IMG/VR virus record: IMGVR_UViG_3300033121_002354
Location: 32,001-96,000 of that record
Reading direction: 5' to 3' (one strand)
Source: a virus
Taxonomy: Duplodnaviria; Caudoviricetes
Length of the DNA: 64,000 bases
Position 1 is the first letter of the stretch. Each line of letters starts with the position of its first letter. Shown piece after piece: positions 3 through 43,135 of the stretch. The notes under the pieces were generated by a model, which saw only the letters and a list, made by a program, of their open reading frames with translations, was not told the origin of the DNA and searched no databases. The translations under genes and the position numbers were made by a program.

Positions 3-317
3 GAAAAACTGTCCTCTGAGTATGACCATACGTTTATGGTTTCACAAGAACCTGTAGCAAACGAAGTTTTAAGAGAAATGGATGACGTTATAGGAGAAGA
101 CAATCACTTCTACTGTACAGGAAAATCTTGGCACAATCCCATCATTTCTATTCTGGATGTCATTTGCAATGAAAAAAGCAGAGATACCAATTGGGGTAAA
201 AACATACCAGACACAGAAATAACCATCGCCGGTTTGAGAGGACAGGATCTAGAAAAAGTAGATGATACAATTAAAGACCTAAATCTAACAGACAAAATAC
301 AGGTAAAACTATTATGA
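3..317 (+). CDS. Hypothetical protein, 5'-truncated by the window edge
   Basis: Frame is open from position 3 through the 36..317 ORF; stop overlaps next start (ATGA). Confidence 0.6.
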   Translation, partial: EKLSSEYDHTFMVSQEPVANEVLREMDDVIGEDNHFYCTGKSWHNPIISILDVICNEKSRDTNWGKNIPDTEITIAGLRGQDLEKVDDTIKDLNLTDKIQVKLL

Positions 318-2472: not shown

Positions 2473-2478
2473 GTATAA

Positions 2479-4633: not shown

Positions 4634-5457
4634 ATGAAACTCAAAAAACGTTGTTTGACAGATTGGCATCCGTAGCACCAGTTTATGCATATGGACCATA
4701 TCTACAAAACATTTTAAAGGGTCTCCCAAACAAGTATCAACCCGTATCTTTGAATCTGATTTCTCCTCAACGACTGGATGAAGAAACGTCGCAATTAATT
4801 GAAAGCAAGTTTTCTCCATTATTTTCTCCAGTCAAAAACGACAGCATGTATTTCTTTTATCACGAAGGCATAAACTTTGTGTGGCTTTTTATGCCAGATT
4901 TTAATCCAAATATCATAAACACTCAAAATGGTATTACAATAGACCAGGTGTTTTTAAACTTAAACACTTATTCTTTGTTGGACCCAACCAGTGCAGGCAT
5001 CTCTGATATAAAAAACGATCCAATCATTATAAGGACTACAGCAGCAAAAGATAAGTGGGACAACGATTTGGTTGCCAATATCCTTATTAAGATAAGTTAT
5101 TTCCAAAAAAGCGAAGTGTCAGAAGAAGATTTGAAAATTATAAATAATATAGACAACTTATCTATACCAGATCTATCAGTCATATTGTGGATGCCATACC
5201 CTTCTAATACTATAAGATTTTTGCTTAATAATACAAAAAATGGCATGAACACAATATTTGATTCATTGTTGCGTTTGGCTCCCAACCTAGAAGTTGCTGT
5301 TCCAGAAACAGTATCTCCTAAGCAGGTTTTTTCACCTAAAAATCTTAAATTATTAGATGTTTACATAGATTATTTTGAAAATCAAAAAGTAGCACTCAAA
5401 AATAATCACAGAGAAAAAACCTTGCTAAAAATTCTACTACATGGGGAAAAAGTTTGA
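4603..5457 (+). CDS. Degenerate CCA-adding enzyme / poly(A) polymerase head-domain homologue, probably inactive
   Basis: VYAYGPYLQNILKG resembles xYxVGGxVRDxLLG; GITIDQVFLNLNTYSLLDPTSAGISDIKNDPIIIRT resembles RDFTINAxxxxxxxxxLIDPxGGxxDLxxxxIR. Catalytic DxD and RRD are absent. Confidence 0.6.
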   Translation: MQTKKDPIVLNETQKTLFDRLASVAPVYAYGPYLQNILKGLPNKYQPVSLNLISPQRLDEETSQLIESKFSPLFSPVKNDSMYFFYHEGINFVWLFMPDFNPNIINTQNGITIDQVFLNLNTYSLLDPTSAGISDIKNDPIIIRTTAAKDKWDNDLVANILIKISYFQKSEVSEEDLKIINNIDNLSIPDLSVILWMPYPSNTIRFLLNNTKNGMNTIFDSLLRLAPNLEVAVPETVSPKQVFSPKNLKLLDVYIDYFENQKVALKNNHREKTLLKILLHGEKV

Positions 5458-8400
5458 GCTGCATAGACCAATGTACAGTTGGACAAATATGCACGCAAAC
5501 ATTTCCGCCCAAATGTTCTCCATTAGTTAATCAGTCGTGCATGTCATCGTGCCTGAGTTTGATACAAACTCCACCGCCAGGAACCGGTCCATTTGGACCG
5601 CCGCCAACTCCACCGAATACACCACCTCCACCTGCAGATTATTGCAGTGGCACATGCAACTGGGAAATTCCAACATGCCTAGACAATCCTTTTGATAGCA
5701 GCACAACAGGATCTTCAAGCACAGCCAGTTCGTGCGTAGCAGAAGAATGCAGTTCGGGCTGTTGTTGCTGTGATTCGCTTGTAGTTGCTGACATAATTAA
5801 ACCGCGTTGTTATGACAGAGTAACTGTTTCTTGCAACTCTGACGGAACAGCTACAGGTGGCCCAAATAGCGTGCCATTCCCGTTGAGTTGCGACAGTTGT
5901 TTCGAAGCGTGCGATTTAATAATTAATGATCCAAATGGGTGCAGCAAACTTTCTACACTTTCATGGTGGGATTTAGGAAATACCAGTTGCTCTTGCGAAT
6001 GTAAGAATTTATCTGTTGTTGATGGCTGCTTATTGCATTGTGCTTATTGCGGGAAATGCGATGCTGAAATCACTATACAGAATAGCCCATGTGAATATAA
6101 GCTAATAGTATCTCCAAGCTCTGACTGTTGCACAGACAACAAAAAAGAAACAGTACAGATAATATTTTTTAACGTGGGCAGTTATAACAATTCGGTTTCT
6201 GGACCAGATCCATTAGTTAAACCAGAAGAGATTCTTCTTTTTCAGCAAAAATTATCAGAACTTAGAACTATATGCACGAATAACGGGATAAACATTTATG
6301 GAGATAACGGTCTACAAGATGGCATAACTAAAGGCAGAGCTTTTTGTGATCCTGGTCCGTGCTGTCCAGATGCTATATATGCAAACGAAACAGAAGCTGC
6401 AGCTTATATAATGGGCAATTTGCAAGCCGTTGAACCACCACAAAGAATAGAAATTGTCATTCTTGTACACGGATTTATTTCAGATTCTTCACAAGATGCT
6501 TGTACAGACATAAACTGGCCTGGATATCCTTCTGACTTCTTTAAATGTCTAGAAACACATAATGCAAAAATATCCACTATTGAATTTAACCGGAATATGA
6601 CGGATTCGTATTTCTCTTCTTTACCGCAAAATGTTGGAGCTAATGAAAATTGTGGCTCTGGAACTATGGGATATCAAAATTGTCGCCCTTCCAGTTTCTG
6701 GCCATCTGACAAGGTAATTGGAAGCATTGCTGCGGGTCCAACAGAGGACCAGTATGATGAATTATGGGCATTAATTACTAGACAAAAACCAATTACTAGT
6801 TGCGACTGTATTGATTCAGAGCCAAAAGTTTTCACTTTTGATAAAAAAGATTGCTCCCCCCGCACTTTTGATGTATGCGGAACAACGATAGTCATTGACA
6901 CCGAAGATATAAACATGGTTTGTTGTGAAGATATCGGCTGTGAATGTTCACAGCCATGTTGTACACCACCACCAAATAGCTGTGCTTGTGGCACAAATTG
7001 CACGGAAGTTTGTAGTAATGGGACAAAACTTTTTCCAAGTTTGTCTGCTGCTATAGAAGCAGTATGGGGAGAATGCAAGTCAAATGCCATTAGCGAAGAT
7101 GATAATGGATGCATAAAAGTCAGAATGAACTCTAATATTGTACAGATTTGCAAAGCTGATATTGAAGCACAAGTAACAGCAGCTTGGTTAGAATGTGAAG
7201 AATGTACTGGTCCTGACTGCGGATCGTGTATCGGTCCAGATTGTCCGTGTCCACCTGGAAATTCTGATTGTAACGGTCCATGCACAGGACCAGATTGTCC
7301 TGATTGTCCCGAAGGAGATCCAGATTGTAATAACTGTACTGGTCCAGACTGCAATAATTGTGATGGGCCAGATTGCCCAGATTGTCCACCTGGAGATCCA
7401 GATTGCAACACCTGTATTGGTCCAGACTGTGATATACCAAATGGACCCGGACCAGATGATGATTGCATAGGGACCAATTGTGATGGTTCTGGTTCGAATC
7501 CTCCACCTAACTTAGTGTGTACTGCAGATGAAACAATCAGTCCGAATGACGACTGTTTTTCTGTTAGACATCCTGATGTTGTTGTTCTAAATAACGGAAT
7601 TGGATTGGTTGCTTTTGAAGATGATTCAGATCCTTCTGTCATAAAAATAAAGCAATTTAAAACAAGTATCGAAAACAAGGTGCAGGCAAACCGTACATTA
7701 AGATTTGGAAGATTACAAAATCCATCAAAATGGATTATTACACAATCTGGACTTTATAGGGTAAAACTTTACCTATATGAAAATATAAGCAATGTTCAGG
7801 TTGGAGATGGGATTTTCTTTTTCAACGGACCATTAGCCAAACAAGCGTTTATCTTGACCACTGTAAGCAGTGACTCTACTGGAGACTATTTAGAATTCAG
7901 TATCAATCCAACAAATGGTTTTGAGTTTAGTGGTAGCTATGAATCTAAAACAGATGACAGATATGATGTACAATGGATAACTTACGACCAGAATGACACA
8001 GGACTTATTGGAGACAGACCACTTCCGACTGGGGTCGAGGCAGATTTGGACGCCACAAAAGAAGATGTGGATTCAATACTTATATTGCCTCCCCATTACT
8101 TTGATGGCAAGAAAGTTCCAGTTGCATATCCAAGGATTACGAACAGCGATAACTACGATAATAATTCAGAAAATTCACAGTTTGTGTATGTTGCATATCA
8201 AGCCTTAGAAAATAAAACATGGAGAATATACTTAAGGCAACTTCGATTGTCAGAGTTTAAAAAGTCAGCAGATGTACTACTAACTTCTGACAACATTTCC
8301 AGTGTAACACCAGAAAATACAAACGAAATCGTTTGGACATGTAAGTCAACATGTATAAGTTATGATTGCGAATCAGAAACTAAAATTGCCACCATTACTT

Positions 8401-9671
8401 CGGTATGGACTGCAGCCACGACGGAAGGCATTGACATATACAATTGCGACTTAAGAAGTGGTGAAAACTTTTTCTGCAATCAATCATTTGAAAAAAACAA
8501 ATTAACCATTTTGGTTTCTCAGACAACAGTTTCTACAGAAAAATGTCCAACTTCTAAAAATCTTCAAAAATGGAACAGAGAAGATACAGTTTCTACGCCT
8601 GTACCAGAGTTTATTTCAGACACAGACCAAAACGAAATAAGCAATTGGGCAAATAGCCATTTCAATTTTGGCGTTACTTCAAGCGAAAATGTAACGATCA
8701 ACTCTTTAAGATGTCAACTTTTATATTCTCAGTCACAAACTGGTGGCTGGTGTACATTCAAAAATGAAATAATAGGTACTCTTAATCAATATAAGGGCTT
8801 GTATGTTTCTGATCCGATTTTAATATCGTCACCAAACCAAAACAGCATTCATCCCAAGATAAAAATAGACTATCTTAACAGGCTTTTTATTTCTTATTGT
8901 GAAGTTTCTGGAAATGATCAGGACATCATTGTAGTAGGTACAAATACTCCAGAAAATGTGTTGCCTATAGGTACTGATTTTAGGCGAAAAAGCGACTTTT
9001 TGGGATTTGATAGTGAATTCAAATTCTTTTATGACAAAACTGATTTCACTTATCGAAGAAGAGTTACTTTGGGTGGACTAAACCAATATCCTGATATGTG
9101 GATTGACCTAAACAATGTTGTGCATATAGTTTGGCAATCCAATGTTGATCTCGACTGGGAAATCTATTATGCAAATTCGGATGACGAGTTTACTCCAGAA
9201 AGAATAACAAAACAACAAAGCAAGTCTTTACGTCCCTCAATTACGGGGGATAACAGCGGCAATCTAGTCATTGTATGGCACGATGATAGGTTTGGTGTCT
9301 GGGAAATTATGGCAGCAGTCAAGCCAGGATCTCGTATTAGACCACTATACCAACAAAATGAATACATAGCCTCGATGATTAATAATTATCAACACACAAT
9401 AGATTATGTGCCTTTTACAATAACTAATGATACTGATTCAGTAATGTGTTTCACTGATTTATATGTTTCATTTTATCAAGATCGCACACTTACAATTGGA
9501 CCTTTGTTAACTGTACGTAAATCTGATTTTCCTTTTGCATTCTCTGTTGTTTCTAGTGATCCAACTTATCCTTCTGTGCCAGACAAAATTTGTTTGCAAC
9601 CGGGTGAGTCAATCAATTTGCAAATGACATTAACTCCAGAAATTTTTACTAGTGGAGTAATTAGTCCATGA
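5454..9671 (+). CDS. Large Cys-rich / beta-propeller protein (putative virion appendage component)
   Basis: N-terminal half extremely Cys-rich with a Pro tract and CxGPDC repeats. C-terminal half has propeller blades (NQYPDMWIDLNNVVHIVWQS, SLRPSITGDNSGNLVIVWHDDRFG-WEI). Paralogous to 9668+10945. Confidence 0.8.
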   Translation: MSCIDQCTVGQICTQTFPPKCSPLVNQSCMSSCLSLIQTPPPGTGPFGPPPTPPNTPPPPADYCSGTCNWEIPTCLDNPFDSSTTGSSSTASSCVAEECSSGCCCCDSLVVADIIKPRCYDRVTVSCNSDGTATGGPNSVPFPLSCDSCFEACDLIINDPNGCSKLSTLSWWDLGNTSCSCECKNLSVVDGCLLHCAYCGKCDAEITIQNSPCEYKLIVSPSSDCCTDNKKETVQIIFFNVGSYNNSVSGPDPLVKPEEILLFQQKLSELRTICTNNGINIYGDNGLQDGITKGRAFCDPGPCCPDAIYANETEAAAYIMGNLQAVEPPQRIEIVILVHGFISDSSQDACTDINWPGYPSDFFKCLETHNAKISTIEFNRNMTDSYFSSLPQNVGANENCGSGTMGYQNCRPSSFWPSDKVIGSIAAGPTEDQYDELWALITRQKPITSCDCIDSEPKVFTFDKKDCSPRTFDVCGTTIVIDTEDINMVCCEDIGCECSQPCCTPPPNSCACGTNCTEVCSNGTKLFPSLSAAIEAVWGECKSNAISEDDNGCIKVRMNSNIVQICKADIEAQVTAAWLECEECTGPDCGSCIGPDCPCPPGNSDCNGPCTGPDCPDCPEGDPDCNNCTGPDCNNCDGPDCPDCPPGDPDCNTCIGPDCDIPNGPGPDDDCIGTNCDGSGSNPPPNLVCTADETISPNDDCFSVRHPDVVVLNNGIGLVAFEDDSDPSVIKIKQFKTSIENKVQANRTLRFGRLQNPSKWIITQSGLYRVKLYLYENISNVQVGDGIFFFNGPLAKQAFILTTVSSDSTGDYLEFSINPTNGFEFSGSYESKTDDRYDVQWITYDQNDTGLIGDRPLPTGVEADLDATKEDVDSILILPPHYFDGKKVPVAYPRITNSDNYDNNSENSQFVYVAYQALENKTWRIYLRQLRLSEFKKSADVLLTSDNISSVTPENTNEIVWTCKSTCISYDCESETKIATITSVWTAATTEGIDIYNCDLRSGENFFCNQSFEKNKLTILVSQTTVSTEKCPTSKNLQKWNREDTVSTPVPEFISDTDQNEISNWANSHFNFGVTSSENVTINSLRCQLLYSQSQTGGWCTFKNEIIGTLNQYKGLYVSDPILISSPNQNSIHPKIKIDYLNRLFISYCEVSGNDQDIIVVGTNTPENVLPIGTDFRRKSDFLGFDSEFKFFYDKTDFTYRRRVTLGGLNQYPDMWIDLNNVVHIVWQSNVDLDWEIYYANSDDEFTPERITKQQSKSLRPSITGDNSGNLVIVWHDDRFGVWEIMAAVKPGSRIRPLYQQNEYIASMINNYQHTIDYVPFTITNDTDSVMCFTDLYVSFYQDRTLTIGPLLTVRKSDFPFAFSVVSSDPTYPSVPDKICLQPGESINLQMTLTPEIFTSGVISP
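7195..7490 (+). repeat. Intragenic tandem repeat encoding Cys-x-Gly-Pro-Asp-Cys / Pro-Asp-Cys units
   Basis: CTGPDC, CIGPDC, CTGPDC, CTGPDC, CDGPDC, CIGPDC plus PDCPxGDPDC twice; DNA unit ggtccagattg / ccagattg recurs. Confidence 0.9.
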
Positions 9672-10945
9672 CTAACATAACTACCACTACACAGTCAGGA
9701 TATGCTCCTTTAAGCGTTAGTTTTACTTTTACAACTAACAAAACTGTGTCTGCATCTTTATGGAATTTTGGAGATGGAGAAACAAGCACCGAAACCAATC
9801 CAACTCACTACTATACTTGTCCTGGCATTTATTCTGTGTCTCTAGTCATAAATTCAGGTACAGTTGATGAGGACAGCAGTTTTAAAAGCAATTTAATTAT
9901 CGTTTTACACCACAGTCCAACGATGCCAAATGAATCTTGTTGTTTAGGGCCATACGAAATTGATTGCATTGACTGTACATCTGGATCAGGTACTCAGTTT
10001 GTTGACTCAACAAAACTTTACAGAACGTGTAAAAATGTTTCATGTTCTAAAACCTGCCAAGAGATTTATGGCGATATCTACACAATCATAGATGATAATG
10101 ATAACTGTCCTTCTTGCAAGGAATGTTATTTAGAGCACAAAACAACATTAGGCAGAATTTATACAGTAATTCCATCTGCTTGTTCAGTATTTATAAGTGG
10201 ATATGACTTCTCACAGGACTGTGGAGAATGTCTAGGACAAGCTGAAGAGTTTTGTTTTAGTATGGATTTATGTGAACAAAACAGTTCATGTGCAACTATT
10301 TTCTCTTTTGATAATCACACTTTCTCAATTAGAGGTACTAAATCTACATGTACAGACGGATTTGATTGTGGAGATTGCTGGATAGCTCCTAATGCTTTCT
10401 CAGAGAGTGTTTTTGGAAACGTGCCATCAACATCGACCTGTATAGATGAAGAAGAAACAGCCACAACCACCACAGAGACCAGTCCAGACATTTTGTGGCA
10501 CAACATACCATCTGGGGATAGCGGAATAGGAGTTGATTGTAATGCTGAAAACGAAATAACATCAGCATCAGAAGCACAAAGTCAACAACATCCCGTTATT
10601 GACACAATGCCATCTGGCGATGCAATCATTGCATTCGAGGAACGAGTAGACGGAGCTATCAATAAAATATCTTTATCTGAAATAAAAACTACCGTAAAAA
10701 ATTCAGTGTTAGCTTGGAGATCTCATAGTGGTGGTACGCTGGTAAATCAAGGTTCTTTAAGTGGAATAATTACATTTAGAATATACGAAAAAGCAAAAGT
10801 AGAGGTTGGACACGGCATAGGATTTTTAAGTGGTCCATTGGCCGGAAAAACTTACGAAGTTCTTTCTGCTACACAGGTATGGGATGAAAACGATTTTTAT
10901 TGGGAAGTAACATTTAATTCTGACAACCCGTTAGGAGATTCATAA
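9668..10945 (+). CDS. PKD-domain, Cys-rich structural protein
   Basis: GYAPLSVSF...WNFGDGETSTETNPTHYYTCPGIYSVSL is a classic PKD domain. C-terminal part is paralogous to the central part of the 5454 protein. Confidence 0.85.
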   Translation: MTNITTTTQSGYAPLSVSFTFTTNKTVSASLWNFGDGETSTETNPTHYYTCPGIYSVSLVINSGTVDEDSSFKSNLIIVLHHSPTMPNESCCLGPYEIDCIDCTSGSGTQFVDSTKLYRTCKNVSCSKTCQEIYGDIYTIIDDNDNCPSCKECYLEHKTTLGRIYTVIPSACSVFISGYDFSQDCGECLGQAEEFCFSMDLCEQNSSCATIFSFDNHTFSIRGTKSTCTDGFDCGDCWIAPNAFSESVFGNVPSTSTCIDEEETATTTTETSPDILWHNIPSGDSGIGVDCNAENEITSASEAQSQQHPVIDTMPSGDAIIAFEERVDGAINKISLSEIKTTVKNSVLAWRSHSGGTLVNQGSLSGIITFRIYEKAKVEVGHGIGFLSGPLAGKTYEVLSATQVWDENDFYWEVTFNSDNPLGDS

Positions 10946-14514: not shown

Positions 14515-14541
14515 ATTTGTAAATAATAGCCTTCCATTGGA

Positions 14542-24459: not shown

Positions 24460-24460
24460 A

Positions 24461-25861: not shown

Positions 25862-26076
25862 ACTGGTTAAAGTTATCTCAAACACCAGTCGTTTTTTCTG
25901 GAACGTATCAACAGTGGAATGGTAGAGACGAAATTGGAGAATTAAGCGTTCATATAAATGGAAAACTATACAAATTTCTTCTTCATCCCTCAGAAAAAGC
26001 ACGATTTGAAACACTTTTAAGATACAACAAGGGTCGTGCATTAGCGTATTTGCGTCAGTTTGAAAGAACTCAATAA
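25858..26076 (+). CDS. Small hypothetical protein (MNWLKLSQ N-terminus)
   Basis: 72 aa; start overlaps upstream gene end, stop overlaps next start (TAATG). Confidence 0.65.
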   Translation: MNWLKLSQTPVVFSGTYQQWNGRDEIGELSVHINGKLYKFLLHPSEKARFETLLRYNKGRALAYLRQFERTQ

Positions 26077-34085: not shown

Positions 34086-37000
34086 ATGAAGTCTTTTGCC
34101 TATAAACTATTTAAATTTGATGACACAAATTCTGACACCGGTCTGCCAGACACAACCATTGTTTCAATACCTCCAAGCACCACAGAAACAATAGAAATAA
34201 CAGACTTTAATCATTCCAGTGCTGAATTTATTAACACAAGTATATCTTCTAATGGAGCTGTTTGTCTTTCCACAGACGAAAAGATTTTGTCAATCCTGTT
34301 AGACCAAAGCGGGTCTATGACGTGGAACGACTCAAAAAATGACAAATTAACACTTCTAAAATCAATAATTGAAAAAATAAAAAAAATCTATCCAGACAAG
34401 ATAAAGATAAATCTAGTAACAGTCAATGGTGAACAAATCGAAATTGAAACGGTTTTGTCATCTTTTGATTCGTTTTCTTCAATAAGTGATAACAATATTT
34501 TTGAAACAGTTCAAAAAAGTGTGTTTCAAAATAGTGTTTACAATCTTGGCGGAATTAGAGTTGTACGAAGAACAGATAGATACCCTGCCACGCCGCTAGA
34601 TGGACTAATTATAACAGACAGTATCATTGACCTTGTATTTGACACTGATTTAGTAAACGGAGAAACCTATTATTACACGATTTATACATATAATGAACAC
34701 GGGCATTTTTCGAATGGCATAAATCTAAAGGTGACGGCTGTAGATCCTGCATTTATAAAGGGAGTTGCAAGTTTTGATGCGGAAGTAAAAACTCTTTTTG
34801 GGCCAACTAGAGACGAAAGCCTTTTTTGTTCATTAATTTTCTCAGAACACGAATCAACTATTTTGTATGATTCTTCTGGAAATAAACACCATTTTTCTTT
34901 AACAAATGAAGAAAATAACACTTTCTGGGCCGGTTCTCCACTGAACGAAGACCCAAGCACAAGTGTTGGCGGGCTCCTTTTGAACGGTGGCTATCTTAAG
35001 AGCATCGAAAGCAACTCTGAATTTCAACTGTTGTCTGGAACTGAAAAAACGATAAATTTTTGGGCTAAAAGGTACTTAAATAGCAATACTTGCATCCTGT
35101 TTTCTGTAGAGAACAACACTAACTTTCAGTACAGAGTAAAACTAGTATCAAACAAGGTGGCTATACAAACAAGTGGTGGTACGTTTGTATCAAATGCTGT
35201 TGTTGGCATTGATTGGACTATGGTTACTCTTGTGTTTCAAGAAACCAGTCCTGTATCTTGCGATGTTTTCTTAAATGGGTTATATGATTCAACTGTAACC
35301 TTTTCTGTACCAGCAACATTGTCAAACACATATTGCTATGTTGGCGGATCAGCATTAGAAAACCTTTTTTACTATGGATCTGTAGGATCAATATCGTTCC
35401 ACAACACAGCAAGATCGACTATTTATATAGAAAATTTATATGATAATGAATCCCATAATTTTGTGTCTCCAATATTAAACACAGCAATAGAACCTGCAGA
35501 TAATGGGGAAAGAAGTGTTTTAATAAACTGGTTAATCCCAGACGAATATGAATTCGACAAAATAAAAATAACAAGACAAATTAACAGAACACCAAATTAT
35601 GTTGATGATGGAGATATTGTTGTTGATACAACAGTAACAAATGGGTCGTTTTCTTTTTTGGATTGCCACGATTTTATAAATGGAGCTAACTACTACTATA
35701 GGATTTTTACTCTTTTAAATGACGAAGTTTGTCACGTATCAAACGCCTTAGTTTCCAGTACCTTAATTCCTTTTCAAATTCAAAAAGATTTACTGGTCAC
35801 TGAACTAGAAATGCCAGTAACCACTCTAGTCCCTGGTGATAGACGAGTATTAATCAAATGGAATTCTCCAACAGATTCAAGAGTGGTCGGAACAAGAATT
35901 TATTACAACACAAAAGAGTATCCAAATATAGATGGTCAAACAAGTACATCTGTCTTGATCTTTGATAGTGTTGATGGCAGCACAAAATATGTACACAGAA
36001 ACATACCAAACGATATCAATTATTATTCTGTAATTTTCTATGATAAGTTTGGAAACATTTCTGCACAAGATCAAGTTAAAACACTTACTTCGAGCGACTT
36101 TGCAGATGTCATTTTTGATTCTGACGAAATAAGCGATTTACACATAGAACAAACCGCCTCTTCAGAGATTAAGTTGCAGTGGAAAAACCCAATTCTTGAA
36201 ACCAACTCCTTAGATTTGTGGTTTGGTGAAAGTGCTATTTTTTTAATCAACATAAAAAGCCTGAACGGGAACGAGATAACCACTTTACCACAACTAAAAT
36301 CAAACTTGACTACAAGTTTTGAAATAAGCACTTCTAACACTAGCACAAATGCATCTTTTGGTAATCTCGCCACTTTTGAAATAACTGATTTGGGCAATGG
36401 GCTTATTAAAGGAATAATAAGACACACAAATAACACTGCAACCTTAAATTCTCTAGCAAGTATCAAAGCTGATGTAGCAAATAATTTTGAAATTTTGGAC
36501 AGAAATTCAGATCTGGCCATTTTTAAGTGTTCTCTAAATTCTGTACTGGTTAATTTTAGTCAGCCACTTTCCATAGATATTGAGAATCTATTACAGTTAA
36601 AAGTACCAGCTCAAAACTTGACTACTGGCACAGAAACAACTACTGGAAGCAGAGTTTGCCCAGAAAGATTTTGTGAGTCTGTAACAGATACTACTCCAAA
36701 CACGTTTATTAGCGGTGGATATGCCAACCAAAGCCAGTCATACATTGCAAGAGTATATGTTTCATCTAAAAATCTTCCAGTACCAGATGGAACAATTGTA
36801 AACATTTCTCTTAAATTGACTGGTAAAAATACTACTCCTGTTTACACAAAAATACTAGAAGGTTCATATCAAACTGTTTCATCAAACATTGAACGTCTTG
36901 ATTCAAATGGTGTTTCAACAGGAATTTTTGAAAGACGAAGTTACGTCGATGTAGAAATGCAATCCCCAATTACAGAAGAAACAGTCGATATAATTGCAGC

Positions 37001-40000
37001 TTTTTCTCTGAACGGATTACAAGTCACTAAAAATCATACTGTTACTTGGCTAAATACGCTAAAAATGGAAGTCCACGCAAACAAACCAATGCCAGATGGT
37101 ATTGATAGTGTAGAACAGTTTGCAAATATCTATTTTGTAGATCCCGATGATCCCGAAAATATTGAAAAAAGAACTCCGGTAGTTGACGGGACCATAGTGC
37201 AGTGGAAATTAGAACAAGGATCTTTTGCAAAGGATAGACCATTCTATAGCACAGAGCCACTAGCTCAAAGAGTGGGTGGCGTTTATTCTTTGACCAAAAA
37301 TGGTACAGCAAGAAACGTTTTTTTTGGTCCAATCTCAAACATCAAAAGCAATGTAGTCACTTTTTCTTGTGCAAGCGGCGATGGAGGCACTTGCTGTGTT
37401 GGTGAAGAATACAAAGTTGTTGCCCAAATAGTATATAACGACAAAACATACAAAGCTGGACAGTGGATTGGATACGACTGCCAAGAAGCTCAATCTCTAA
37501 ACTTGTCTTCTAAAATTCTAATGACTGGAGATTCTGATACACTATCTGTATTCCCGCATTATTTAACATATGCTGATGGGGAAAGTTTAATACATTTAAA
37601 AGTAATTAGTGATCCAACAACTTCATCCGAATTTTATGCAGATTGCTTTATTGCATGTCTTAATAATTTAGGCATGCCAATATATACACTTCCTTGTAAT
37701 CAGTTATTACAAATTGATCCTGGAGAATTAGACACTCAAGCTATTTCTGAAGGACGTACTACAGAAGCTGGAATAGAAGTTTTGTGGGACGTTGTGTTTG
37801 ACGAAAATCCATATACAGGTGAAAAAACAATTGTTTCTTATGAGAGCTTATCTCCTTTTGATTTTGTAGACAACATATCACAATATATTGCTCTGGTTCC
37901 GGTTTCTGGAGCTACTACAGATATCTATTTAAGATGGAACAAATTTGTTGGAGACAACAATCCTGCAGAATGCAAAGAAAACAAAACAAATATAAGTGTT
38001 GCTACAATACTTAGCGAACTAGACGGTGGTTCAGGGCCTTGTGATTTTGTGCCGAAATGCCACGAACTAGATGCGTGCGGGATAAAAAAGAAAAAGAAAT
38101 ACAAAAATGTACAACCTGTTAACGTAACAACAACTTTGGTAGCAAACAATAAAACTGTAACATTAACAGGAGGCGGAACTTATGAAGAGGGAATACCTCC
38201 TGTATATGTTGGATTTAAAGAACCACTAGCCATTAACATTGTTGATATAAGAGTGAACGGCATTAATGGCAATAAGGTTCAAGACATTATTGTTGATGGG
38301 GTTACAAGACACACTTTTGTAGTTGAAGCTACTTTCGCTGGAAAGCCTGTTCCAAGCGGGACTCCAATCAATCTTGAAGTAGTGCCTGTATCTGGTGATA
38401 CTTCGTCCATAGTATTGTCTTCTTCAAAAGTTTATACACATTTAGTACACGATCCAATTTTTGATCCACTAGAAGAAGTGGATGCCAGAAGTTTGGCTTA
38501 TTTTGAAATAAATCCGCTTCCTAATGTAACCTTCTCTGCTTCGATCAAGGCGACATGTAACTATGACAAATTGGGTACTGTCAGCAGAAAGATGTCTGCG
38601 TCAGTGAAGCTATCTAACACAGCAAATACTCCATCTGATTGCGAAACCCCTCCTTGCGGGTCAACAAGCTCTAGCACTGGTTCTTCTACGAAACGAAAAG
38701 TAGTTTCTAACGAAGTTATTATTTACAGCACAATCAATGATGAGTATTCTTCAGAAAGCGGATTGCTGGATTTTAGATCTGGTCAATTTTCTTGGTTAGT
38801 GTCAAATTTGACATCAGATACTGGTCAAGTCCCTGATACATCAGGAAGCGTCCCAAATGAAACATCTGTTTATTTATTTGGTGGATGGGATGGAAACAAA
38901 ATACTTGCAAGCAGTGAAATATTTGATATTGCAACCCTAGAATCCACTTATACGTTTTCCATGATTACTCCAAGAGTACATGGAATGACACAAAAAATCG
39001 GAGACAACATTTATTGTATAGGCGGAATAGAGGTTGATAGTTTTGGCAATTTGCAAGTCTCCAGAAAAATAGAATCATTTAACATTGTTACCCAAAGATG
39101 GAATCCAACTCTGGCGACTATGCCTGCTGGAGTGTCTTTTGGTGTTTCAATGGTTCATAATGGATTTATATATGTACTTTCTGGTGTTCGCACAATTGTG
39201 AACAATTGTTGTTCTCCAGAAAGCTTAAATACTGATATTTACAAATACGATCCAACAACAGACACATGGAGCACTATATCAACAGACGAACCGACTTATA
39301 GTAGAATTTCTCCTTTCTCTGTAAGTCAAAATGGGACTTTATTGGTATACTCCGGCAGTACACCAAAAACAGATGCATTAATAGCTTCAGAGCTTAACGC
39401 CAGTGTGAGTAAGCAGTTAAACGAATTCAAAACAAGTTTGCTGTCCTCTTCTTATTACAAGAACCTTCCAGACGGAGATCTGGAATTGCTTATCGGAGAT
39501 ACACAGCAGAAAATTTTAGAAAACACTTTTACTTCACCATACTTTTATTTGTCTTCTGCTTATATATTTGATCCTGAAACTGAAACCGTTGTTGAATATG
39601 AAGTTCCTTGGAAAAACCTTCCAGCACTTAGAAGTCGTGGTTGCTCGATTGAAAGCGGAAACAATTTCTTTACCATTGGTGGATCAAACGTTAAGTCTTC
39701 TACCTCTAATAGAAATGAGAAAATAAATCTATCTACCAACGAGTACACTAAACTCAAAAATCTCCCAAGAGGAAGATGTAATTTTTCTGCACATTTATAC
39801 AATAATACTATTTACTTTTTTGGTGGGTTCACAAGCGGACACCAAGAAGGCTGGCTCTCAATTGATGCAAAAGTATATCCAACTTTTGCAGAAACCATAG
39901 GTAAGGAGTCTCCTTCGATTTCTGTGAATTTATACGATGATGGAGGAGAGTTAGTTACCGAAGAAGTAGAATTGCTTGTCAGAGGTCGAATTAATATCCC

Positions 40001-41465
40001 ATTTTTAACCCCCGCCCTTGGTGTAGACGCCGCAAAACAATCGGCAAATGCTATAGTTGCAAACTCAAATAATAATGCGTCACAGATACAGGCGATAATT
40101 GATACAATCAAAGATCCTAGCAGTGACCAATTTCAACTTAATGCTGTTGCAAAACTGGACCAAACACTGTCTTCTTTTCCTGTTTTGTTTAGCGAATCAA
40201 AAATAAAAACTTCAGGTACACATACAACATATTTACTGCCAAGAAGCGAAGACCCGTTCATGAACCTAAAAAGTGTAGCAGAAGATGTTTTGTCTTTAGG
40301 AATTTCAAAGATAAACGATTTATCCTTAACAACATCTGGCTCTACTTTAAGCAGTCAAATTTCCACTTTAGCAAATGCTTTAAGTGCTTACAAAAACAAG
40401 CCAATCGAAATTACTGCCAACCAGAGCAGAAAGCTTTATGATATAGAAATAGAAGTTACCGTTTTAAGTGATCAGCTTTTTGGGCAGACAATTTGTTCCA
40501 GTACGTTGACATCTTTAAACGCTTTTATACAAACCCTAGAACAAGCAATTAAAAAGATAAACGCCACACAATCTTTGTTGTCAACAAGCAGCAATCAAGG
40601 TACTTCCGTTTCTGATGTAGGTACTGTAACAGTAGATGCCACAAATTCTGATAGTAGTGGACAAAATGTTTATTCTAAATGTCTTTTGGGAATTACTCCT
40701 GAACCAAAACAGCAAAACACCTGTCCTGTTGTGACCTATTTTAATACTGTACCCTGGATTCCACAAACGAGAACAATTTTGGGTACAAATTCTTCTACTG
40801 CAGATGAGGTTTTAACAGAATTGCAGTCTTTAGAATACGATTCTCCTTTTGGGAGCAGTCAGATATTCGACGGAATAACACAAATAGCAAACCTGATAAC
40901 CTCAGAAGAAGTAAAAGACTTGAACAAGTATGTTTACATCTTTTCTGACACCGAAGAGAACTTGTCAAGCTCATCTCTTGATGACGCAGTTAACAACATA
41001 AATGCCGTAGATGGTCTTAATAAGACCCCAATCATTTTCAATGTTATCAATACTGCACTTCCAGCATCAATTGTTTCGGAAGCAACTTCGTCCCAATCAA
41101 TTACGGCAGAAACTTTGTCACAAAAGACAAATGGTCAGACAACGGTTTTGAATGATTCTAAATATATAAATGAAATTGCCGACTTGTCCATAAGGGCCAC
41201 TGGTGGTCTTGGACACGGTGTTTACAGGAGAGTAATTGATCTAGGCGAGCTTTCTTCAATATCAAAAATAACACCAGGCTTCTTTCTTCCGACCGACGCA
41301 ACCATTTCCATCCGCTTCAGGACAAGTACGGATGGGCAAAATTATTCCACTTGGACAAAGTTATACAAGAACGTTTCTAGTATAACAGTAGAGAATATTT
41401 TGTGCAGATTCATAGAAATAGAAGTTGTATTAAATACGGAATTTATTGATTTAAGTAGCTCATAA
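34086..41465 (+). CDS. Giant vWA / FN3 / LamG / Ig / Kelch structural protein
   Basis: 2459 aa. MIDAS motif LLDQSGSM; FN3-like YYYTIY / YYYRIF; LamG-like WTMVTLVF; Kelch repeats VYLFGGWDG, IYCIGG, IYVLSG, FFTIGG, IYFFGG; second vWA half YIFSDTEEN near the C-terminus. Confidence 0.85.
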   Translation: MKSFAYKLFKFDDTNSDTGLPDTTIVSIPPSTTETIEITDFNHSSAEFINTSISSNGAVCLSTDEKILSILLDQSGSMTWNDSKNDKLTLLKSIIEKIKKIYPDKIKINLVTVNGEQIEIETVLSSFDSFSSISDNNIFETVQKSVFQNSVYNLGGIRVVRRTDRYPATPLDGLIITDSIIDLVFDTDLVNGETYYYTIYTYNEHGHFSNGINLKVTAVDPAFIKGVASFDAEVKTLFGPTRDESLFCSLIFSEHESTILYDSSGNKHHFSLTNEENNTFWAGSPLNEDPSTSVGGLLLNGGYLKSIESNSEFQLLSGTEKTINFWAKRYLNSNTCILFSVENNTNFQYRVKLVSNKVAIQTSGGTFVSNAVVGIDWTMVTLVFQETSPVSCDVFLNGLYDSTVTFSVPATLSNTYCYVGGSALENLFYYGSVGSISFHNTARSTIYIENLYDNESHNFVSPILNTAIEPADNGERSVLINWLIPDEYEFDKIKITRQINRTPNYVDDGDIVVDTTVTNGSFSFLDCHDFINGANYYYRIFTLLNDEVCHVSNALVSSTLIPFQIQKDLLVTELEMPVTTLVPGDRRVLIKWNSPTDSRVVGTRIYYNTKEYPNIDGQTSTSVLIFDSVDGSTKYVHRNIPNDINYYSVIFYDKFGNISAQDQVKTLTSSDFADVIFDSDEISDLHIEQTASSEIKLQWKNPILETNSLDLWFGESAIFLINIKSLNGNEITTLPQLKSNLTTSFEISTSNTSTNASFGNLATFEITDLGNGLIKGIIRHTNNTATLNSLASIKADVANNFEILDRNSDLAIFKCSLNSVLVNFSQPLSIDIENLLQLKVPAQNLTTGTETTTGSRVCPERFCESVTDTTPNTFISGGYANQSQSYIARVYVSSKNLPVPDGTIVNISLKLTGKNTTPVYTKILEGSYQTVSSNIERLDSNGVSTGIFERRSYVDVEMQSPITEETVDIIAAFSLNGLQVTKNHTVTWLNTLKMEVHANKPMPDGIDSVEQFANIYFVDPDDPENIEKRTPVVDGTIVQWKLEQGSFAKDRPFYSTEPLAQRVGGVYSLTKNGTARNVFFGPISNIKSNVVTFSCASGDGGTCCVGEEYKVVAQIVYNDKTYKAGQWIGYDCQEAQSLNLSSKILMTGDSDTLSVFPHYLTYADGESLIHLKVISDPTTSSEFYADCFIACLNNLGMPIYTLPCNQLLQIDPGELDTQAISEGRTTEAGIEVLWDVVFDENPYTGEKTIVSYESLSPFDFVDNISQYIALVPVSGATTDIYLRWNKFVGDNNPAECKENKTNISVATILSELDGGSGPCDFVPKCHELDACGIKKKKKYKNVQPVNVTTTLVANNKTVTLTGGGTYEEGIPPVYVGFKEPLAINIVDIRVNGINGNKVQDIIVDGVTRHTFVVEATFAGKPVPSGTPINLEVVPVSGDTSSIVLSSSKVYTHLVHDPIFDPLEEVDARSLAYFEINPLPNVTFSASIKATCNYDKLGTVSRKMSASVKLSNTANTPSDCETPPCGSTSSSTGSSTKRKVVSNEVIIYSTINDEYSSESGLLDFRSGQFSWLVSNLTSDTGQVPDTSGSVPNETSVYLFGGWDGNKILASSEIFDIATLESTYTFSMITPRVHGMTQKIGDNIYCIGGIEVDSFGNLQVSRKIESFNIVTQRWNPTLATMPAGVSFGVSMVHNGFIYVLSGVRTIVNNCCSPESLNTDIYKYDPTTDTWSTISTDEPTYSRISPFSVSQNGTLLVYSGSTPKTDALIASELNASVSKQLNEFKTSLLSSSYYKNLPDGDLELLIGDTQQKILENTFTSPYFYLSSAYIFDPETETVVEYEVPWKNLPALRSRGCSIESGNNFFTIGGSNVKSSTSNRNEKINLSTNEYTKLKNLPRGRCNFSAHLYNNTIYFFGGFTSGHQEGWLSIDAKVYPTFAETIGKESPSISVNLYDDGGELVTEEVELLVRGRINIPFLTPALGVDAAKQSANAIVANSNNNASQIQAIIDTIKDPSSDQFQLNAVAKLDQTLSSFPVLFSESKIKTSGTHTTYLLPRSEDPFMNLKSVAEDVLSLGISKINDLSLTTSGSTLSSQISTLANALSAYKNKPIEITANQSRKLYDIEIEVTVLSDQLFGQTICSSTLTSLNAFIQTLEQAIKKINATQSLLSTSSNQGTSVSDVGTVTVDATNSDSSGQNVYSKCLLGITPEPKQQNTCPVVTYFNTVPWIPQTRTILGTNSSTADEVLTELQSLEYDSPFGSSQIFDGITQIANLITSEEVKDLNKYVYIFSDTEENLSSSSLDDAVNNINAVDGLNKTPIIFNVINTALPASIVSEATSSQSITAETLSQKTNGQTTVLNDSKYINEIADLSIRATGGLGHGVYRRVIDLGELSSISKITPGFFLPTDATISIRFRTSTDGQNYSTWTKLYKNVSSITVENILCRFIEIEVVLNTEFIDLSSS

Positions 41466-43135
41466 TGTTTTCAAGGCACTATTTTGCTCCACATTATTTC
41501 GCTCCACATTATTGGGCATCAAAAGGCTCAATAAATATTGTTTCTTATGGAACAATTCCGTGTTTTACCTCTTTATATATAGAAAAGTCTGCTGTTAGGG
41601 AAGATTGGCTTTTTTTAAATCCCATCACAACCGATGGAGCCGTTGAACAGGTTGAAGCGTCTTTAGCAATAAGTAAGCCGGAAGCAGCAACATCATTTTA
41701 TGGCATTTCTGCAAGTGACAGTTTTGCATCCAAAGACATGAGCACAAAAGAACGGCCTTTGTTGTTAGAATCACGAAAAACTTTTATGCTAAACAGAAGT
41801 AAAAACAGTGATTCCGTCGTAGCAGAGGAGCAGTTAACTACAACAAATGGTTTTGTTTTTAGTGCAGATTACGGCCCCTGGAACGGAATGAGCGAAATTG
41901 AAATAACAGAAACAGTAGATGGAGTAACAAGGACTTTAAGCACAAATGAATACAAAGTTATTCCATACAGTGGAAAAGTAGTCACTCAAAAAAGATACGC
42001 CCTGAATAAGACATTCAATATTTTTATTTCTGACACTGAAAGAATGAGAGTCGGCTTCTTTATTAAAAATCCTAGCACAACACAATCCATTACAATTGAG
42101 GGAGCTGGATACGTTTATACAACAAACAAAGAAAGACAACCAGCCCTAAGCCAAGTGGCACCCACTGCGTCACAAATAAAAATTTCTCCAAACGAGCCAA
42201 CCATAAATTCTGTTATGGCAATAAGTTATAAATACTTTGATTTGAACAGAAACGCAGAAAGCGGAACACTCATTCAGTGGTTTAAGAATGGAATACCCTT
42301 GTTTGAGATAAACAACAAACAATCATTTTCAAACACTGATTTGTTGCCTGTTAACAAATTAAAAAGTGGTGATACTATTTCTGCCATAGTTACTCCATCT
42401 GACGGCACTTCTTATGGAACCGCAAAAAATGCTCCACCTGTTAAAATAGCCGAAAGTCCACCGACACTAGAAGCTGCCAAAATAGTGCCAACTCGCAACG
42501 GAGTTGTTAACAGCGTTTTTGACACTTCGAGTGTTTTAACTGTTAGTTATCAGTTTTTATTGCCCGGCAGCACGAGCAGTAAAGAAAAGAATACAACTTT
42601 GGTATGGTTTGTAAATGGAGACATATTTAAGACTCAAACTTTTTCATTTAATGATCCGGTTTCTAAAAAAACACTCTACCCAGTTCCAACGGTTATAGGT
42701 AAAGATACGGATGGCAAGGACATAACTCAAGATGACAGTGCGGCATTTATCATTGGAAATCAGATTTACGTAGAAATAACACCGAAAACCAGCTCTAAAA
42801 CTGGAGAGCTTATCAGAACTGACACAATCACTTTAGTAAATTCAGTTCCTGTAATCAACGATGCCAGCATTAAGCAGGCAGCAGGAAATATAGACGTGTC
42901 TTATACAATAAGCGACGTAGATATAAACAGGGGCTCTGAAACCGATCAAACCGAGATACACTGGTTTGAGGCATTGTCGGGTGGAGCATTTACAGAACGT
43001 TCTGATTTGCTTTCCAAGCGATCTGTCCCCCTTTCTTCATTCACCAAGGGATCATCTGTGCGTGTTAAGTTTATTCCTTTTGATGGCATGTCATTTGGTA
43101 TAGAATTTACAACTGCGTCTATTTTAATAACATAA
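41465..43135 (+). CDS. Ig-like repeat structural protein with N-terminal HYFAP repeat
   Basis: SYKYFDLNRNAESGTLIQWFKNG...VTPSDGTSYG and similar units paralogous to those in 18340; region after the leader aligns with the 24461 protein. Confidence 0.8.
   Translation: MFSRHYFAPHYFAPHYWASKGSINIVSYGTIPCFTSLYIEKSAVREDWLFLNPITTDGAVEQVEASLAISKPEAATSFYGISASDSFASKDMSTKERPLLLESRKTFMLNRSKNSDSVVAEEQLTTTNGFVFSADYGPWNGMSEIEITETVDGVTRTLSTNEYKVIPYSGKVVTQKRYALNKTFNIFISDTERMRVGFFIKNPSTTQSITIEGAGYVYTTNKERQPALSQVAPTASQIKISPNEPTINSVMAISYKYFDLNRNAESGTLIQWFKNGIPLFEINNKQSFSNTDLLPVNKLKSGDTISAIVTPSDGTSYGTAKNAPPVKIAESPPTLEAAKIVPTRNGVVNSVFDTSSVLTVSYQFLLPGSTSSKEKNTTLVWFVNGDIFKTQTFSFNDPVSKKTLYPVPTVIGKDTDGKDITQDDSAAFIIGNQIYVEITPKTSSKTGELIRTDTITLVNSVPVINDASIKQAAGNIDVSYTISDVDINRGSETDQTEIHWFEALSGGAFTERSDLLSKRSVPLSSFTKGSSVRVKFIPFDGMSFGIEFTTASILIT
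41477..41515 (+). repeat. 15-bp tandem repeat (HYFAP-HYFAP-HYW)
   Basis: cactattttgctcca cattatttcgctcca cattattgg. Confidence 0.85.

What the first reader, a model, noticed from the sequence alone, without database searches (positions are those of the whole stretch)
5454..43135. Chain of giant genes whose boundaries fall inside protein domains (possible split-domain / donor-strand assembly system)
Seen: at five tight junctions (9668-9671 ATGA; 10943-10947 TAATA; 24457-24463 TAA-A-ATG; 34083-34088 TAA-ATG in frame; 41463-41467 TAATG) the upstream ORF stops mid-domain and the missing strand(s) appear in the next ORF. Four cases are supported by an intact paralogue within this window; 34083 rests on a recalled family pattern (see individual findings). 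The frame relations differ (-1, -1, +1, 0, -1) and each junction is a clean stop/start couple, which argues against one readthrough mechanism or random sequencing errors. In three cases the downstream gene begins with an extra module (PKD, PKD-PKD, HYFAP leader) before the complementing strand. Known analogy: donor-strand complementation in chaperone-usher pili. Inference: a >10,000-aa virion appendage is made as coupled pieces that lock together by completing each other's folds, and each cut opens a free N-terminus where new modules can be displayed.
Basis: partly seen in the sequence, partly recalled or inferred. Interest (0 to 1): 0.85.

Follow-up and report, generated by a model that had tools for sequence, protein, structure and literature searches.

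The report
Giant phage genes split inside domains
In a fragment of an uncultured, very large phage, giant adhesin-like genes that related phages encode as single genes have been cut into adjacent, tightly coupled genes, at least twice inside a folded domain, so the pieces probably snap back together by sharing beta-strands; binding has only been modelled, not measured.

Summary
All five stop/start couples and their frame relations are real. A 60x contig, probably the source assembly, matches with no differences. The main cuts recur in diverged relatives, so they are not errors.

Comparison with about 45 related huge-phage contigs gives the explanation. The window's lineage has undergone gene fission:
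- G+H is one ORF in 23 relatives.
- B+C is one ORF in 13.
- K+L, with a J-like domain in front, is one ORF in 3.

The cuts sit as follows:
- G|H lies in a loop between two strands of a beta-propeller blade, and that propeller is itself inserted in an Ig-like domain. A modelled G-tail/H-head complex scored ipSAE 0.86 against 0.02 for the best control.
- K|L falls just before the last strand of a beta-sandwich that is intact in paralogue H.
- B|C interrupts a stretch that is contiguous in paralogue A. Whether it cuts a domain is unresolved.
- J|K is not shown to cut a domain.
- A|B is different. A alone is truncated inside an Ig-like domain by a lineage-specific loss, and B does not convincingly supply the missing strands.

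Readthrough and frameshifting are not supported. Virion location is not shown. This scan noted similar intra-domain splits in other phages (unchecked notes).

The parts
5454..9671 (+). Gene A (1405 aa). It is 56% identical to residues 1-1397 of the 2024-aa A18. It ends inside an Ig-like domain, lacking the last two strands and the CxxC.
9668..9671 (+). A|B couple, ATGA. Relatives have a further ~625 aa of A plus a 217-aa ORF here, so this is a window-specific deletion joint.
9668..10945 (+). Gene B (425 aa): PKD domain (residues 7-65), a Cys-rich part, and residues 291-420 resembling A 689-821.
10943..10947 (+). B|C couple, TAATA. C has no canonical start codon here. AGGAG lies 7 nt upstream of ATA 10945, and the first ATG/GTG/TTG in frame is GTG at 11071, inside the first PKD domain.
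10945..14514 (+). Gene C (1189 aa from 10945): two PKD-like domains (to about 11535), then residues 198-671 resembling A 833-1346 (propeller-like plus Ig-like), then a C-terminal unit.
18340..24459 (+). Gene G (2039 aa). Its last ~325 aa (23482-24456) hold the first strands of an Ig-like domain followed by most of an inserted beta-propeller.
24457..24463 (+). G|H couple, TAA-A-ATG. This is the fission site, in a variable loop between two strands of a propeller blade.
24461..24715 (+). H residues 1-85: the remaining propeller strands and the closing Ig strands (KKIYLKVKDEAGNVS...). In the model they contact G 1718-1757, 1808-1825 and 2023-2034.
24461..25861 (+). Gene H (466 aa). Residues 131-229 form an intact six-strand beta-sandwich, the paralogue of the K-end/L-start domain.
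26076..32495 (+). Gene I (2139 aa). It is a single ORF here and is cut in two in several relatives.
32496..34085 (+). Gene J (529 aa): a Laminin_G_3 domain plus a conserved ~290-aa C-terminal domain that is fused to K in some distant relatives.
34086..41465 (+). Gene K (2459 aa): vWA-like start and Kelch propeller. The last ~83 aa (41214-41462) are a beta-sandwich that lacks its final strand.
41463..41467 (+). K|L couple, TAATG. This is the fission site, in the loop before the last strand of the sandwich.
41465..43135 (+). Gene L (556 aa): a 29-aa HYFAP-repeat leader (41465-41551), then the candidate donor strand TIPCFTSLYIEK (41552-41587), then Ig-like repeats.
43119..43973 (-). LAGLIDADG homing-endonuclease gene overlapping the 3' end of L. 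It is the only mobile-element gene next to the cluster.

Best explanation
The region is an operon of giant modular lectin/adhesin-like proteins (Ig/PKD, LamG, Kelch- and BNR-type propellers, vWA) from a family of huge phages of roughly 0.5 Mb.

In most members of the family the same protein material is encoded in fewer, longer ORFs. In the window's lineage these ORFs were cut by separate fission events of different ages:
- G|H is the oldest. It is shared with 5 relatives at 53-66% identity.
- B|C is shared with two relatives.
- K|L is shared with the closest relative only.
- J|K varies across the family.

Each cut lies in a loop that tolerates insertions and is marked by an overlapping or abutting stop/start.

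Shown: the fissions themselves, their age, and for G|H and K|L their position inside a fold.

Inferred: the downstream piece is made by coupled translation next to the upstream one. Its N-terminal strands complete the unfinished propeller/Ig (G-H) or beta-sandwich (K-L). This rebuilds non-covalently the protein that relatives make as one chain. I regard this as largely tolerated (near-neutral) fission of very stable beta folds. A side effect is that new N-termini become places where modules are gained and lost.

A|B is not such a joint. A lost its C-terminal ~625 aa and the following small gene.

The proteins are probably glycan-binding fibres of the virion (about even odds; not shown).
For: The boundaries are real:
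- One 60x contig shows no differences.
- H-like proteins stand alone at 465-487 aa in 10 clusters.
- G|H takes the form of a 4-nt overlap, a 10-nt gap or a 1-nt overlap, and in L017 an extra 135-aa ORF sits between the two genes.
- L014 has a 78-aa ORF between K and L.

Fused orthologues:
- G+H is one ORF in 23 IMG/VR contigs of up to 548 kb.
- B+C is one ORF in 13 metagenome contigs, with no PKD domains between the parts.
- J-C-like+K+L is one ORF of ~3260 aa in L077, L078 and L079.

Polarity: on the H tree the six split forms are one clade (SH-aLRT 98), sister to the fused L052 (100). That is one change.

Position of the cuts:
- The G|H alignment runs unbroken through the cut in fused forms, between two blade strands.
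- K-end plus L(30-) is collinear with H 132-278, E 0.0011 against 0.05-0.09 for the controls.
- In the H model, strand 220-229 belongs to the 131-229 sandwich.

Assembly: the modelled complex of G's last 350 aa with H 1-130 gave ipSAE 0.86, 0.88 and 0.86. The best of 3 controls gave 0.02. That mark was reached by 58 of 80 solved complexes and 2 of 110 mismatched pairs. There were ~290 contacts, at least 73% of contacts shared between runs, and partner pLDDT of at least 63. Because these are halves of a split gene with common folds, the pass may reflect likeness to single-chain propellers.

Against suppression or readthrough: the 17 tRNAs include no suppressor.
Against: - Binding is modelled for one pair only and measured for none.
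- Both AF2 monomer models are poor (mean pLDDT 49-50), so the domain status of the B|C site is open.
- K|L rests on three fused relatives at only 25-28% identity and on modest profile scores.
- The J-C/K fusion rests on a pairwise hhalign E of 0.002.
- The polarity of the change needs the root to lie outside the split clade.
- C has no canonical start codon, so B|C could be a decaying gene rather than a working joint.
- No structural genes are in the record, so 'fibre' is an inference from domain content.
Confidence: 0.7

Rival explanations
1. A purpose-built donor-strand assembly system. The cuts are selected because they let a >10,000-aa appendage be built from interlocking pieces and let new modules be displayed on the freed N-termini.
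For: - Several cuts occur in one operon, and all are tightly coupled.
- N-terminal material after the cuts varies: C against C18 and C30, and the leaders of L and B18.
- G|H has been kept for a long time.
- The modelled G-H interface is strong.
Against: - The cuts arose at different times and most relatives do without them.
- One 'joint', A|B, is simply a truncation.
- Relatives cut G and I at other places, and the window has I in one piece. That looks like drift in where giant genes are cut.
- No dedicated assembly factor was found.
Confidence: 0.15
2. Ordinary coupled gene boundaries lying at domain borders. Each product folds on its own, and the apparent complementarity is only paralogy between repeated modules.
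For: - Stop/start overlaps are the rule throughout this operon, including at boundaries nobody questions (D|E, E|F, F|G).
- J-like proteins all end at one conserved point.
- The A-model region equivalent to the B|C cut is of low confidence and may be a linker.
Against: - In fused relatives the G|H cut lies between adjacent strands of one blade, only a few residues apart in L053 and L055.
- H 63-85 is an orphan pair of Ig strands with no earlier Ig strands in H.
- H 1-129 has pLDDT 25-49 when modelled alone (AF2). In the different model used for the complex with G, the whole H 1-130 piece had mean pLDDT 64-73.
- K lacks the strand that H and the fused forms have.
Confidence: 0.08
3. Programmed recoding: frameshifting at the -1 and +1 couples and readthrough at the in-frame TAA produce the long fused proteins.
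For: - I, J and K share one frame and are separated only by TAA.
- C has no start codon of its own, and its frame is open from 21 nt before B's stop.
Against: - Frame relation and spacing differ between relatives at every junction, and extra ORFs sit between G|H and K|L in some.
- J is replaced by unrelated genes in relatives.
- No suppressor tRNA was found.
- No slippery heptamer lies before B's stop (read from the sequence).
Confidence: 0.04
4. Assembly errors or recent pseudogenisation: the stops are artefacts or fresh disabling mutations.
For: - A is truncated relative to every relative.
- C lacks a start codon.
- L076 shows that heavily fragmented versions of these genes exist.
Against: - The 60x contig shows no differences, and an independent strain shows no indels where covered.
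- G|H, B|C and K|L recur in relatives at 50-66% identity, with both pieces intact.
Confidence: 0.03

Closest known systems
Split nozzle of Pseudomonas podophage A1002 (gp39 nozzle-rope plus gp42 nozzle-base; PMC13730344, PLoS Biol 2026)
   Same: Two phage proteins jointly rebuild a beta-propeller and a platform domain that related phages make as one chain. The missing blade strands of one are supplied by the other.
   Different: That case is a solved cryo-EM structure of one tail-hub protein. Here there are several cuts in giant adhesin-like genes of unknown location, one inside a propeller nested in an Ig domain, and the evidence is modelling and comparative only. There is no sequence relationship.
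'Genes in pieces' in T4-like phages: Aeh1 nrdA-a/nrdA-b, split gene 43 of phages 25 and 44RR, T4 genes 39/60 (review PMC2988022)
   Same: A contiguous coding region of related phages is split into two polypeptides that must reassemble. Both pieces are retained.
   Different: Those splits are in enzymes and are tied to homing-endonuclease or other insertions at the break. No endonuclease domain was found in the small ORFs that sit at the breaks in relatives. The only one nearby lies downstream of L.
Donor-strand complementation in chaperone-usher pili (established knowledge)
   Same: K|L has the same formal logic: a beta-sandwich lacking its last strand, and a strand at the N-terminus of the next subunit.
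   Different: There is no chaperone or usher, no pilin fold and no secretion signal on these proteins. The incomplete fold arose by cutting a gene, not as a polymerisation device. G|H shares about one and a half propeller blades plus two Ig strands, far more than one strand.
Blade insertion into open propellers of nucleoporins (Sec13-Nup145C, Seh1-Nup85; my own knowledge, not checked here)
   Same: A propeller is closed by strands from a second chain.
   Different: Eukaryotic and unrelated. Those partners are not products of a recent fission of one gene.

Membership tests
Gene fission ('genes in pieces') of a single ancestral ORF | Orthologues in related genomes carry the two parts in one ORF, collinear across the cut | tested here: met
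   G+H is fused in 23 loci, B+C in 13 and K+L in 3
Gene fission ('genes in pieces') of a single ancestral ORF | Both pieces are kept intact in diverged genomes that share the cut | tested here: met
   G|H occurs in 6 phages at 53-66% identity, B|C in 3 and K|L in 2
Gene fission ('genes in pieces') of a single ancestral ORF | The split state is derived | tested here: inconclusive
   The tree needs one change, and the split clade is sister to the fused L052. The root is midpoint only. The structural argument (a fold cannot be born in two chains) favours fission.
Gene fission ('genes in pieces') of a single ancestral ORF | The pieces reassemble | tested here: inconclusive
   Only G|H was modelled: ipSAE 0.86 against 0.02 for the best control. 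There is no measurement.
Homing-endonuclease-mediated gene splitting | An endonuclease gene sits at the break | tested here: not met
   There is no insert at the window's breaks. The small ORFs at the breaks in L017, L014 and L010 have no nuclease domain. The LAGLIDADG gene lies after L.
Chaperone-usher donor-strand system | Periplasmic chaperone and outer-membrane usher genes, pilin-fold subunits | tested here: not met
   No such Pfam or PHROG families appear in the window's ORFs from 314 to 43973, or among the ORFs tested between 44427 and 63357
Chaperone-usher donor-strand system | A subunit fold lacks its last strand, which the N-terminal extension of the next subunit supplies | tested here: inconclusive
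   K|L fits by alignment to H and to the fused forms. No complex was modelled.
Programmed frameshift or readthrough | A conserved recoding signal and frame relation across relatives | tested here: not met
   Spacing and frames differ, and some relatives have intervening ORFs. No suppressor tRNA was found.
Split-intein 'fractured genes' (PMC2677866) | Intein N- and C-fragments flank the break | tested here: not met
   There are no intein or Hint hits in A-L. K ends and L begins without intein blocks.

The most novel reading that the evidence does not exclude
Intra-domain fission followed by strand-sharing reassembly is a recurrent, selected way in which huge phages build and remodel very long fibres. 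Each cut would create a non-covalent 'zip' joint whose new N-terminus is then used to add or swap binding modules, giving a natural modular split-protein system. Several cuts in one operon here would be one instance of a general rule. Unchecked notes from this scan describe similar cuts in other phages.
Probability: 0.2. Interest if true: 0.75.

Novelty: new variant of a known kind. Interest (0 to 1): 0.6.

Why it matters
- It gives a clean natural series: the same giant proteins occur in one piece and in two pieces in related phages, with cuts inside a propeller blade and before the last strand of a beta-sandwich. This makes it directly testable how far beta-rich folds tolerate being encoded in trans, and whether coupled translation is needed.
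- For annotation, it warns that 'truncated' domains at the ends of giant phage genes can be halves of a shared fold rather than errors.
- If the joints are strong, they are candidate natural parts for split-protein engineering.
- It also documents how gene boundaries drift in the largest phage genes.

Tried and rejected
- The search of protein representatives with B was swamped by PKD-rich proteins and gave nothing on B itself.
- Single-protein scans of IMG/VR with B and H found only PKD matches or nothing. Profile scans were needed.
- B's non-PKD part found no further relatives in JGI metagenomes or IMG/VR.
- D found only one relative.
- PDB sequence searches with the H family and with A 641-1405 found nothing usable.
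- PHROGs gave no informative family for the cluster proteins tested (pre-genes, B, C, D, E, F, H, J, L). The only rows were two marginal unknown-function matches.
- The AF2 monomer models of H and of A 680-1405 were poor, with mean pLDDT 49.6 and 49.1.
- Foldseek on the A model gave only generic five- to seven-bladed propellers at E around 1e-4, and on the H model nothing.
- The records behind the relatives' loci could not be searched further.
- Tail sheath, baseplate J and terminase families were absent from the 113-kb record. The record is a 23%-complete fragment, so this says nothing about the phage.
- Run X2 holds only a small share of the stretch and was not used.
- Split inteins and a homing-endonuclease origin of the cuts were considered and found without support.
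- A -1 slip from B into C was considered. No slippery site is present.
- Only one complex job was available, so K|L, B|C, J|K and A|B were not modelled as pairs.
Full report
**What the window is.** The window is bases 32001-96000 of a 113-kb IMG/VR virus record. The record is flagged 'provirus', and CheckV estimates it at 23% complete. The window's own proteins are also on record on a 176-kb contig, and the run that holds the window whole has contigs of up to 196 kb. The record carries 17 tRNA genes, none a suppressor. It also carries a DnaE-type polymerase, a DnaB-like helicase, a UvsX-like recombinase and methyltransferases. Relatives found later lie on contigs of 250-548 kb. I therefore read it as a piece of an uncultured huge phage of roughly half a megabase. 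The record holds no recognisable structural genes, but as a fragment this is uninformative.

**The operon.** From 4603 to 43135 all long ORFs are on the + strand and almost all abut or overlap. I call them:
- A 5454-9671
- B 9668-10945
- C 10945-14514
- D 14542-16140
- E 16137-17309
- F 17306-18340
- G 18340-24459
- H 24461-25861
- I 26076-32495
- J 32496-34085
- K 34086-41465
- L 41465-43135

Pfam finds PKD (B, C), an Ig-like domain (G), Laminin_G_3 (J), and Kelch propellers with a weak vWA match (K). PHROGs finds no informative family. Glycosyltransferase genes flank the cluster on both sides. Relatives carry a sulfotransferase gene inside it. None of the N-termini looks like a signal peptide (read).

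**Check of the observation.** The five couples and their frame relations are exactly as described. A contig of run X3 at 60x depth, probably the source assembly, covers 5500-25400 without a single difference. A second strain, from a different study, differs only by substitutions where it is covered. Tight coupling is not special to the five junctions, since D|E, E|F, F|G and I|J look the same.

**G|H.**
- H-like proteins of 465-487 aa stand alone in ten clusters at 53-66% identity.
- In five related contigs a G of 2057-2122 aa is followed by H with a 4-nt overlap, a 10-nt gap or a 1-nt overlap. In L017 a 135-aa ORF lies between them. The boundary is therefore old and is not a recoding site.
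- A profile scan of IMG/VR with the H family returned 25 loci. In all 23 informative ones G and H are one ORF, for example L052 3689-11977 (2763 aa), with G 5-2017 followed by H 3-432.
- The alignment runs straight through the cut. In L053 and L055 the two flanking beta-strands are only a few residues apart, while the window clade has a longer, variable loop carrying the stop and start.
- By motif, G 1715-1790 begins an Ig-like domain of the 'D-x-AGN-x-S' type, a propeller follows, H 1-57 continues the propeller, and H 62-77 (KKIYLKVKDEAGNVS) closes the Ig domain. D carries an uninterrupted copy of that Ig domain.
- The one complex job went to G's last 350 aa plus H 1-130, each with its family alignment. 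It gave ipSAE 0.86, 0.88 and 0.86 against 0.02 for the best of three controls. That mark was reached by 58 of 80 solved complexes and 2 of 110 mismatched pairs. There were ~290 contacts, at least 73% agreement between runs, and partner pLDDT of at least 63.
- The contacts are the ones expected for one fold made from two chains. H 1-10 lies beside G's last strand, H 31-58 beside G's first blade, and H 63-85 beside G's Ig strands.
- These are halves of a split gene with common folds, so the pass may reflect likeness to single-chain propellers. It supports binding and does not show it.
- On a quick maximum-likelihood tree of the H parts, the six split forms are one clade (SH-aLRT 98), sister to the fused L052 (100). 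That is one change (midpoint root only).

**K|L.**
- The closest relative, L014, has K (2452 aa), a 78-aa ORF, then an L homologue that starts directly at the window's L residue ~30, without the HYFAP leader.
- Three distant relatives (L077, L078, L079) carry one ORF of ~3260 aa in which K 1-2451 is followed about 18 residues later by L 31-546.
- The K-like genes of L011, L013 and L016 are 3014-3040 aa, close to K+L (3015). This suggests they too are unsplit, but their ends were not fetched.
- K's last ~83 aa align with H 132-218. With L 30-92 appended, the alignment extends collinearly to H 278 (hhalign score 32, E 0.0011). K alone gives 19.6, L alone 21.4, and a control with another part of L 19.4.
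- In the otherwise poor H model, residues 131-229 form six strands at pLDDT 52-82, the sixth being 220-229. That sixth strand corresponds to TIPCFTSLYIEK of L and to the strand after a ~20-residue loop in the fused L077.
- So the cut lies just before the last strand of a beta-sandwich. This is the junction that most resembles donor-strand complementation. It was not modelled as a pair.

**B|C.**
- A 689-821 matches B 291-420, and A 833-937 matches C 198-293. C18 517-1009 matches A 818-1347 in one piece.
- In 13 metagenome contigs the B-like and C-like parts are one ORF with nothing between them, for example L022 14366-20545. They are split only in the window, in L020 (445 aa + 1476 aa) and in L030 (630 aa + 1789 aa).
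- The three split forms differ in what sits beside the cut. The window has two PKD domains at the start of C. L020 has 336 aa of Ig-like domains plus the PKDs. L030 has extra residues on both sides.
- The site is thus an insertion hot spot that also acquired a stop and restart.
- Whether it lies inside a domain is open. The AF2 model of A 680-1405 is unreliable there (pLDDT 25-39), although its confident parts resemble propellers.
- The window's C has no ATG/GTG/TTG before 11071, which lies inside its first PKD domain. An AGGAG lies 7 nt before ATA 10945, the same spacing as at two clear starts (4603, 17306), in a genome that otherwise rarely shows a Shine-Dalgarno sequence.

**J|K and I|J.**
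- In L014, J and K are in different frames with a 5-nt spacer. In other relatives J is replaced by a 298-aa protein, or by a sulfotransferase plus a 539-aa protein. The common frame of I, J and K is therefore coincidence.
- All J-like proteins share a ~290-aa C-terminal domain that ends at the same point, a few residues after S-T-D-x-G-x-x-F.
- In L053-L057 and L077-L079 the K-like ORF has a ~290-aa N-terminal extension that aligns with this J domain (hhalign E 0.002 over 233 columns). In L065-L075 K starts on its own.
- So this boundary also varies across the family. Nothing shows that it cuts a fold. The terminal motif reads as a complete hairpin, like internal copies in G and I.

**A|B.**
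- A18 (2024 aa) matches A 1-1400 at 56% and then continues for ~625 aa. L030 and every more distant relative do the same, and a small gene (217 aa in L020) follows before the B-like gene.
- Against A18, A30, C and C18, the window's A stops after the fifth or so strand of an Ig-like domain. It lacks '..TYF..' plus one more strand and a CxxC.
It scores only z 1.7 in B18, whose upstream partner A18 is complete.
- I read A|B as a lineage-specific loss. A short match between A's last residues (PEIFTSG) and B18's leader (PEIITSG; z 3.7) may be a recombination footprint, but the DNA gives no clear support.

**Mechanism.**
- Shown: several independent fissions of ancestrally longer ORFs, retained for long periods, with two lying inside folds.
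- Inferred: coupled translation delivers the downstream piece next to the upstream one, and the pieces co-fold.
- I favour tolerated fission over a purpose-built assembly system, for three reasons. Most relatives lack the cuts. Relatives cut G (near residue 695) and I elsewhere, while the window keeps I whole. One of the five 'joints' is simply a truncation.

**Comparison with known cases.**
- The closest solved precedent is the split nozzle of phage A1002, where gp39 supplies the blade strands missing from gp42 (PMC13730344).
- The general phenomenon of phage 'genes in pieces' that reassemble is known for nrdA, gene 43 and the T4 topoisomerase (PMC2988022). There it is linked to endonuclease insertions, for which I found no trace here.
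- Chaperone-usher pili share only the logic of a donated strand.
- This scan's own unchecked notes describe comparable intra-domain cuts in giant fibre genes of other phages. No look-alike of this DNA was noted elsewhere.

**Verdict.** This is a new variant of a known kind: recurrent intra-domain fission in the giant genes of a huge-phage family, with one joint modelled convincingly and none measured.

Noticed in passing
window 10924-11071: Gene C has no ATG/GTG/TTG at its start. B's stop overlaps ATA (TAATA), and AGGAG lies 7 nt upstream, the same spacing as at the clear starts 4603 and 17306. C may start at AUA. The relative L020 has TAA-C-ATG at this point and 336 more N-terminal residues.
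   Followed up: partly
L009 2077-3225 and 3225-5150 (G000 98077-101150): The DnaE-type DNA polymerase is encoded as two abutting ORFs. They match PHROG 405 positions 73-435 and 411-944. This is another gene in pieces in the same genome.
   Followed up: no
window 43119-43973 (-): A LAGLIDADG homing-endonuclease gene overlaps the last 17 nt of L on the opposite strand. The relative L014 has other genes there.
   Followed up: no
window 14400-14514; L020 16423-16998: C's last ~40 residues (..IGIQPD..EDPY.AFGDP..) correspond to the first 30 residues of a separate 191-aa ORF in L020. The same EDPY..FGDP motif ends A18. Gene ends therefore shift around this motif between relatives.
   Followed up: partly
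L076 (IMGVR_UViG_3300045125_000158): Here the G, H and I homologues are broken into many short ORFs in different frames. This could be a decaying copy, a poor assembly or another genetic code.
   Followed up: no
L065, L066, L068, L070-L073, L075; L053-L064: Relatives cut the same proteins elsewhere. G is split near residue 695 in one subclade, and I is split into two ORFs in another, while the window has both whole.
   Followed up: partly
L012/L013/L016 (18135-19184, 8139-9188, 18154-19221); window 314-3582 and 44427-46252: A sulfotransferase gene sits inside the giant-gene cluster of relatives, and glycosyltransferase genes flank it in all. This hints that the giant proteins are glycosylated or sulfated.
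   Followed up: no
window 41465-41551; L020 10651-10716: The N-terminal leaders after two cuts resemble each other in flavour: L has M-F-S-R-HYFAP-HYFAP-HYW, and B18 has M-K-Y-P-N-S-YFPAQF. Their function is unknown.
   Followed up: no
L017 9581-9988; L014 9768-10004; L010 11399-11626: Small ORFs of 135, 78 and 75 aa with no family sit exactly at or beside fission sites in relatives.
   Followed up: partly
window 48851-51148; L014 19070-21013; L020 1-243: The helicase gene carries an intein (Pfam hits on the L014 homologue). A glycosyltransferase in L020 carries an intein with a LAGLIDADG domain. This phage family is rich in selfish elements.
   Followed up: no
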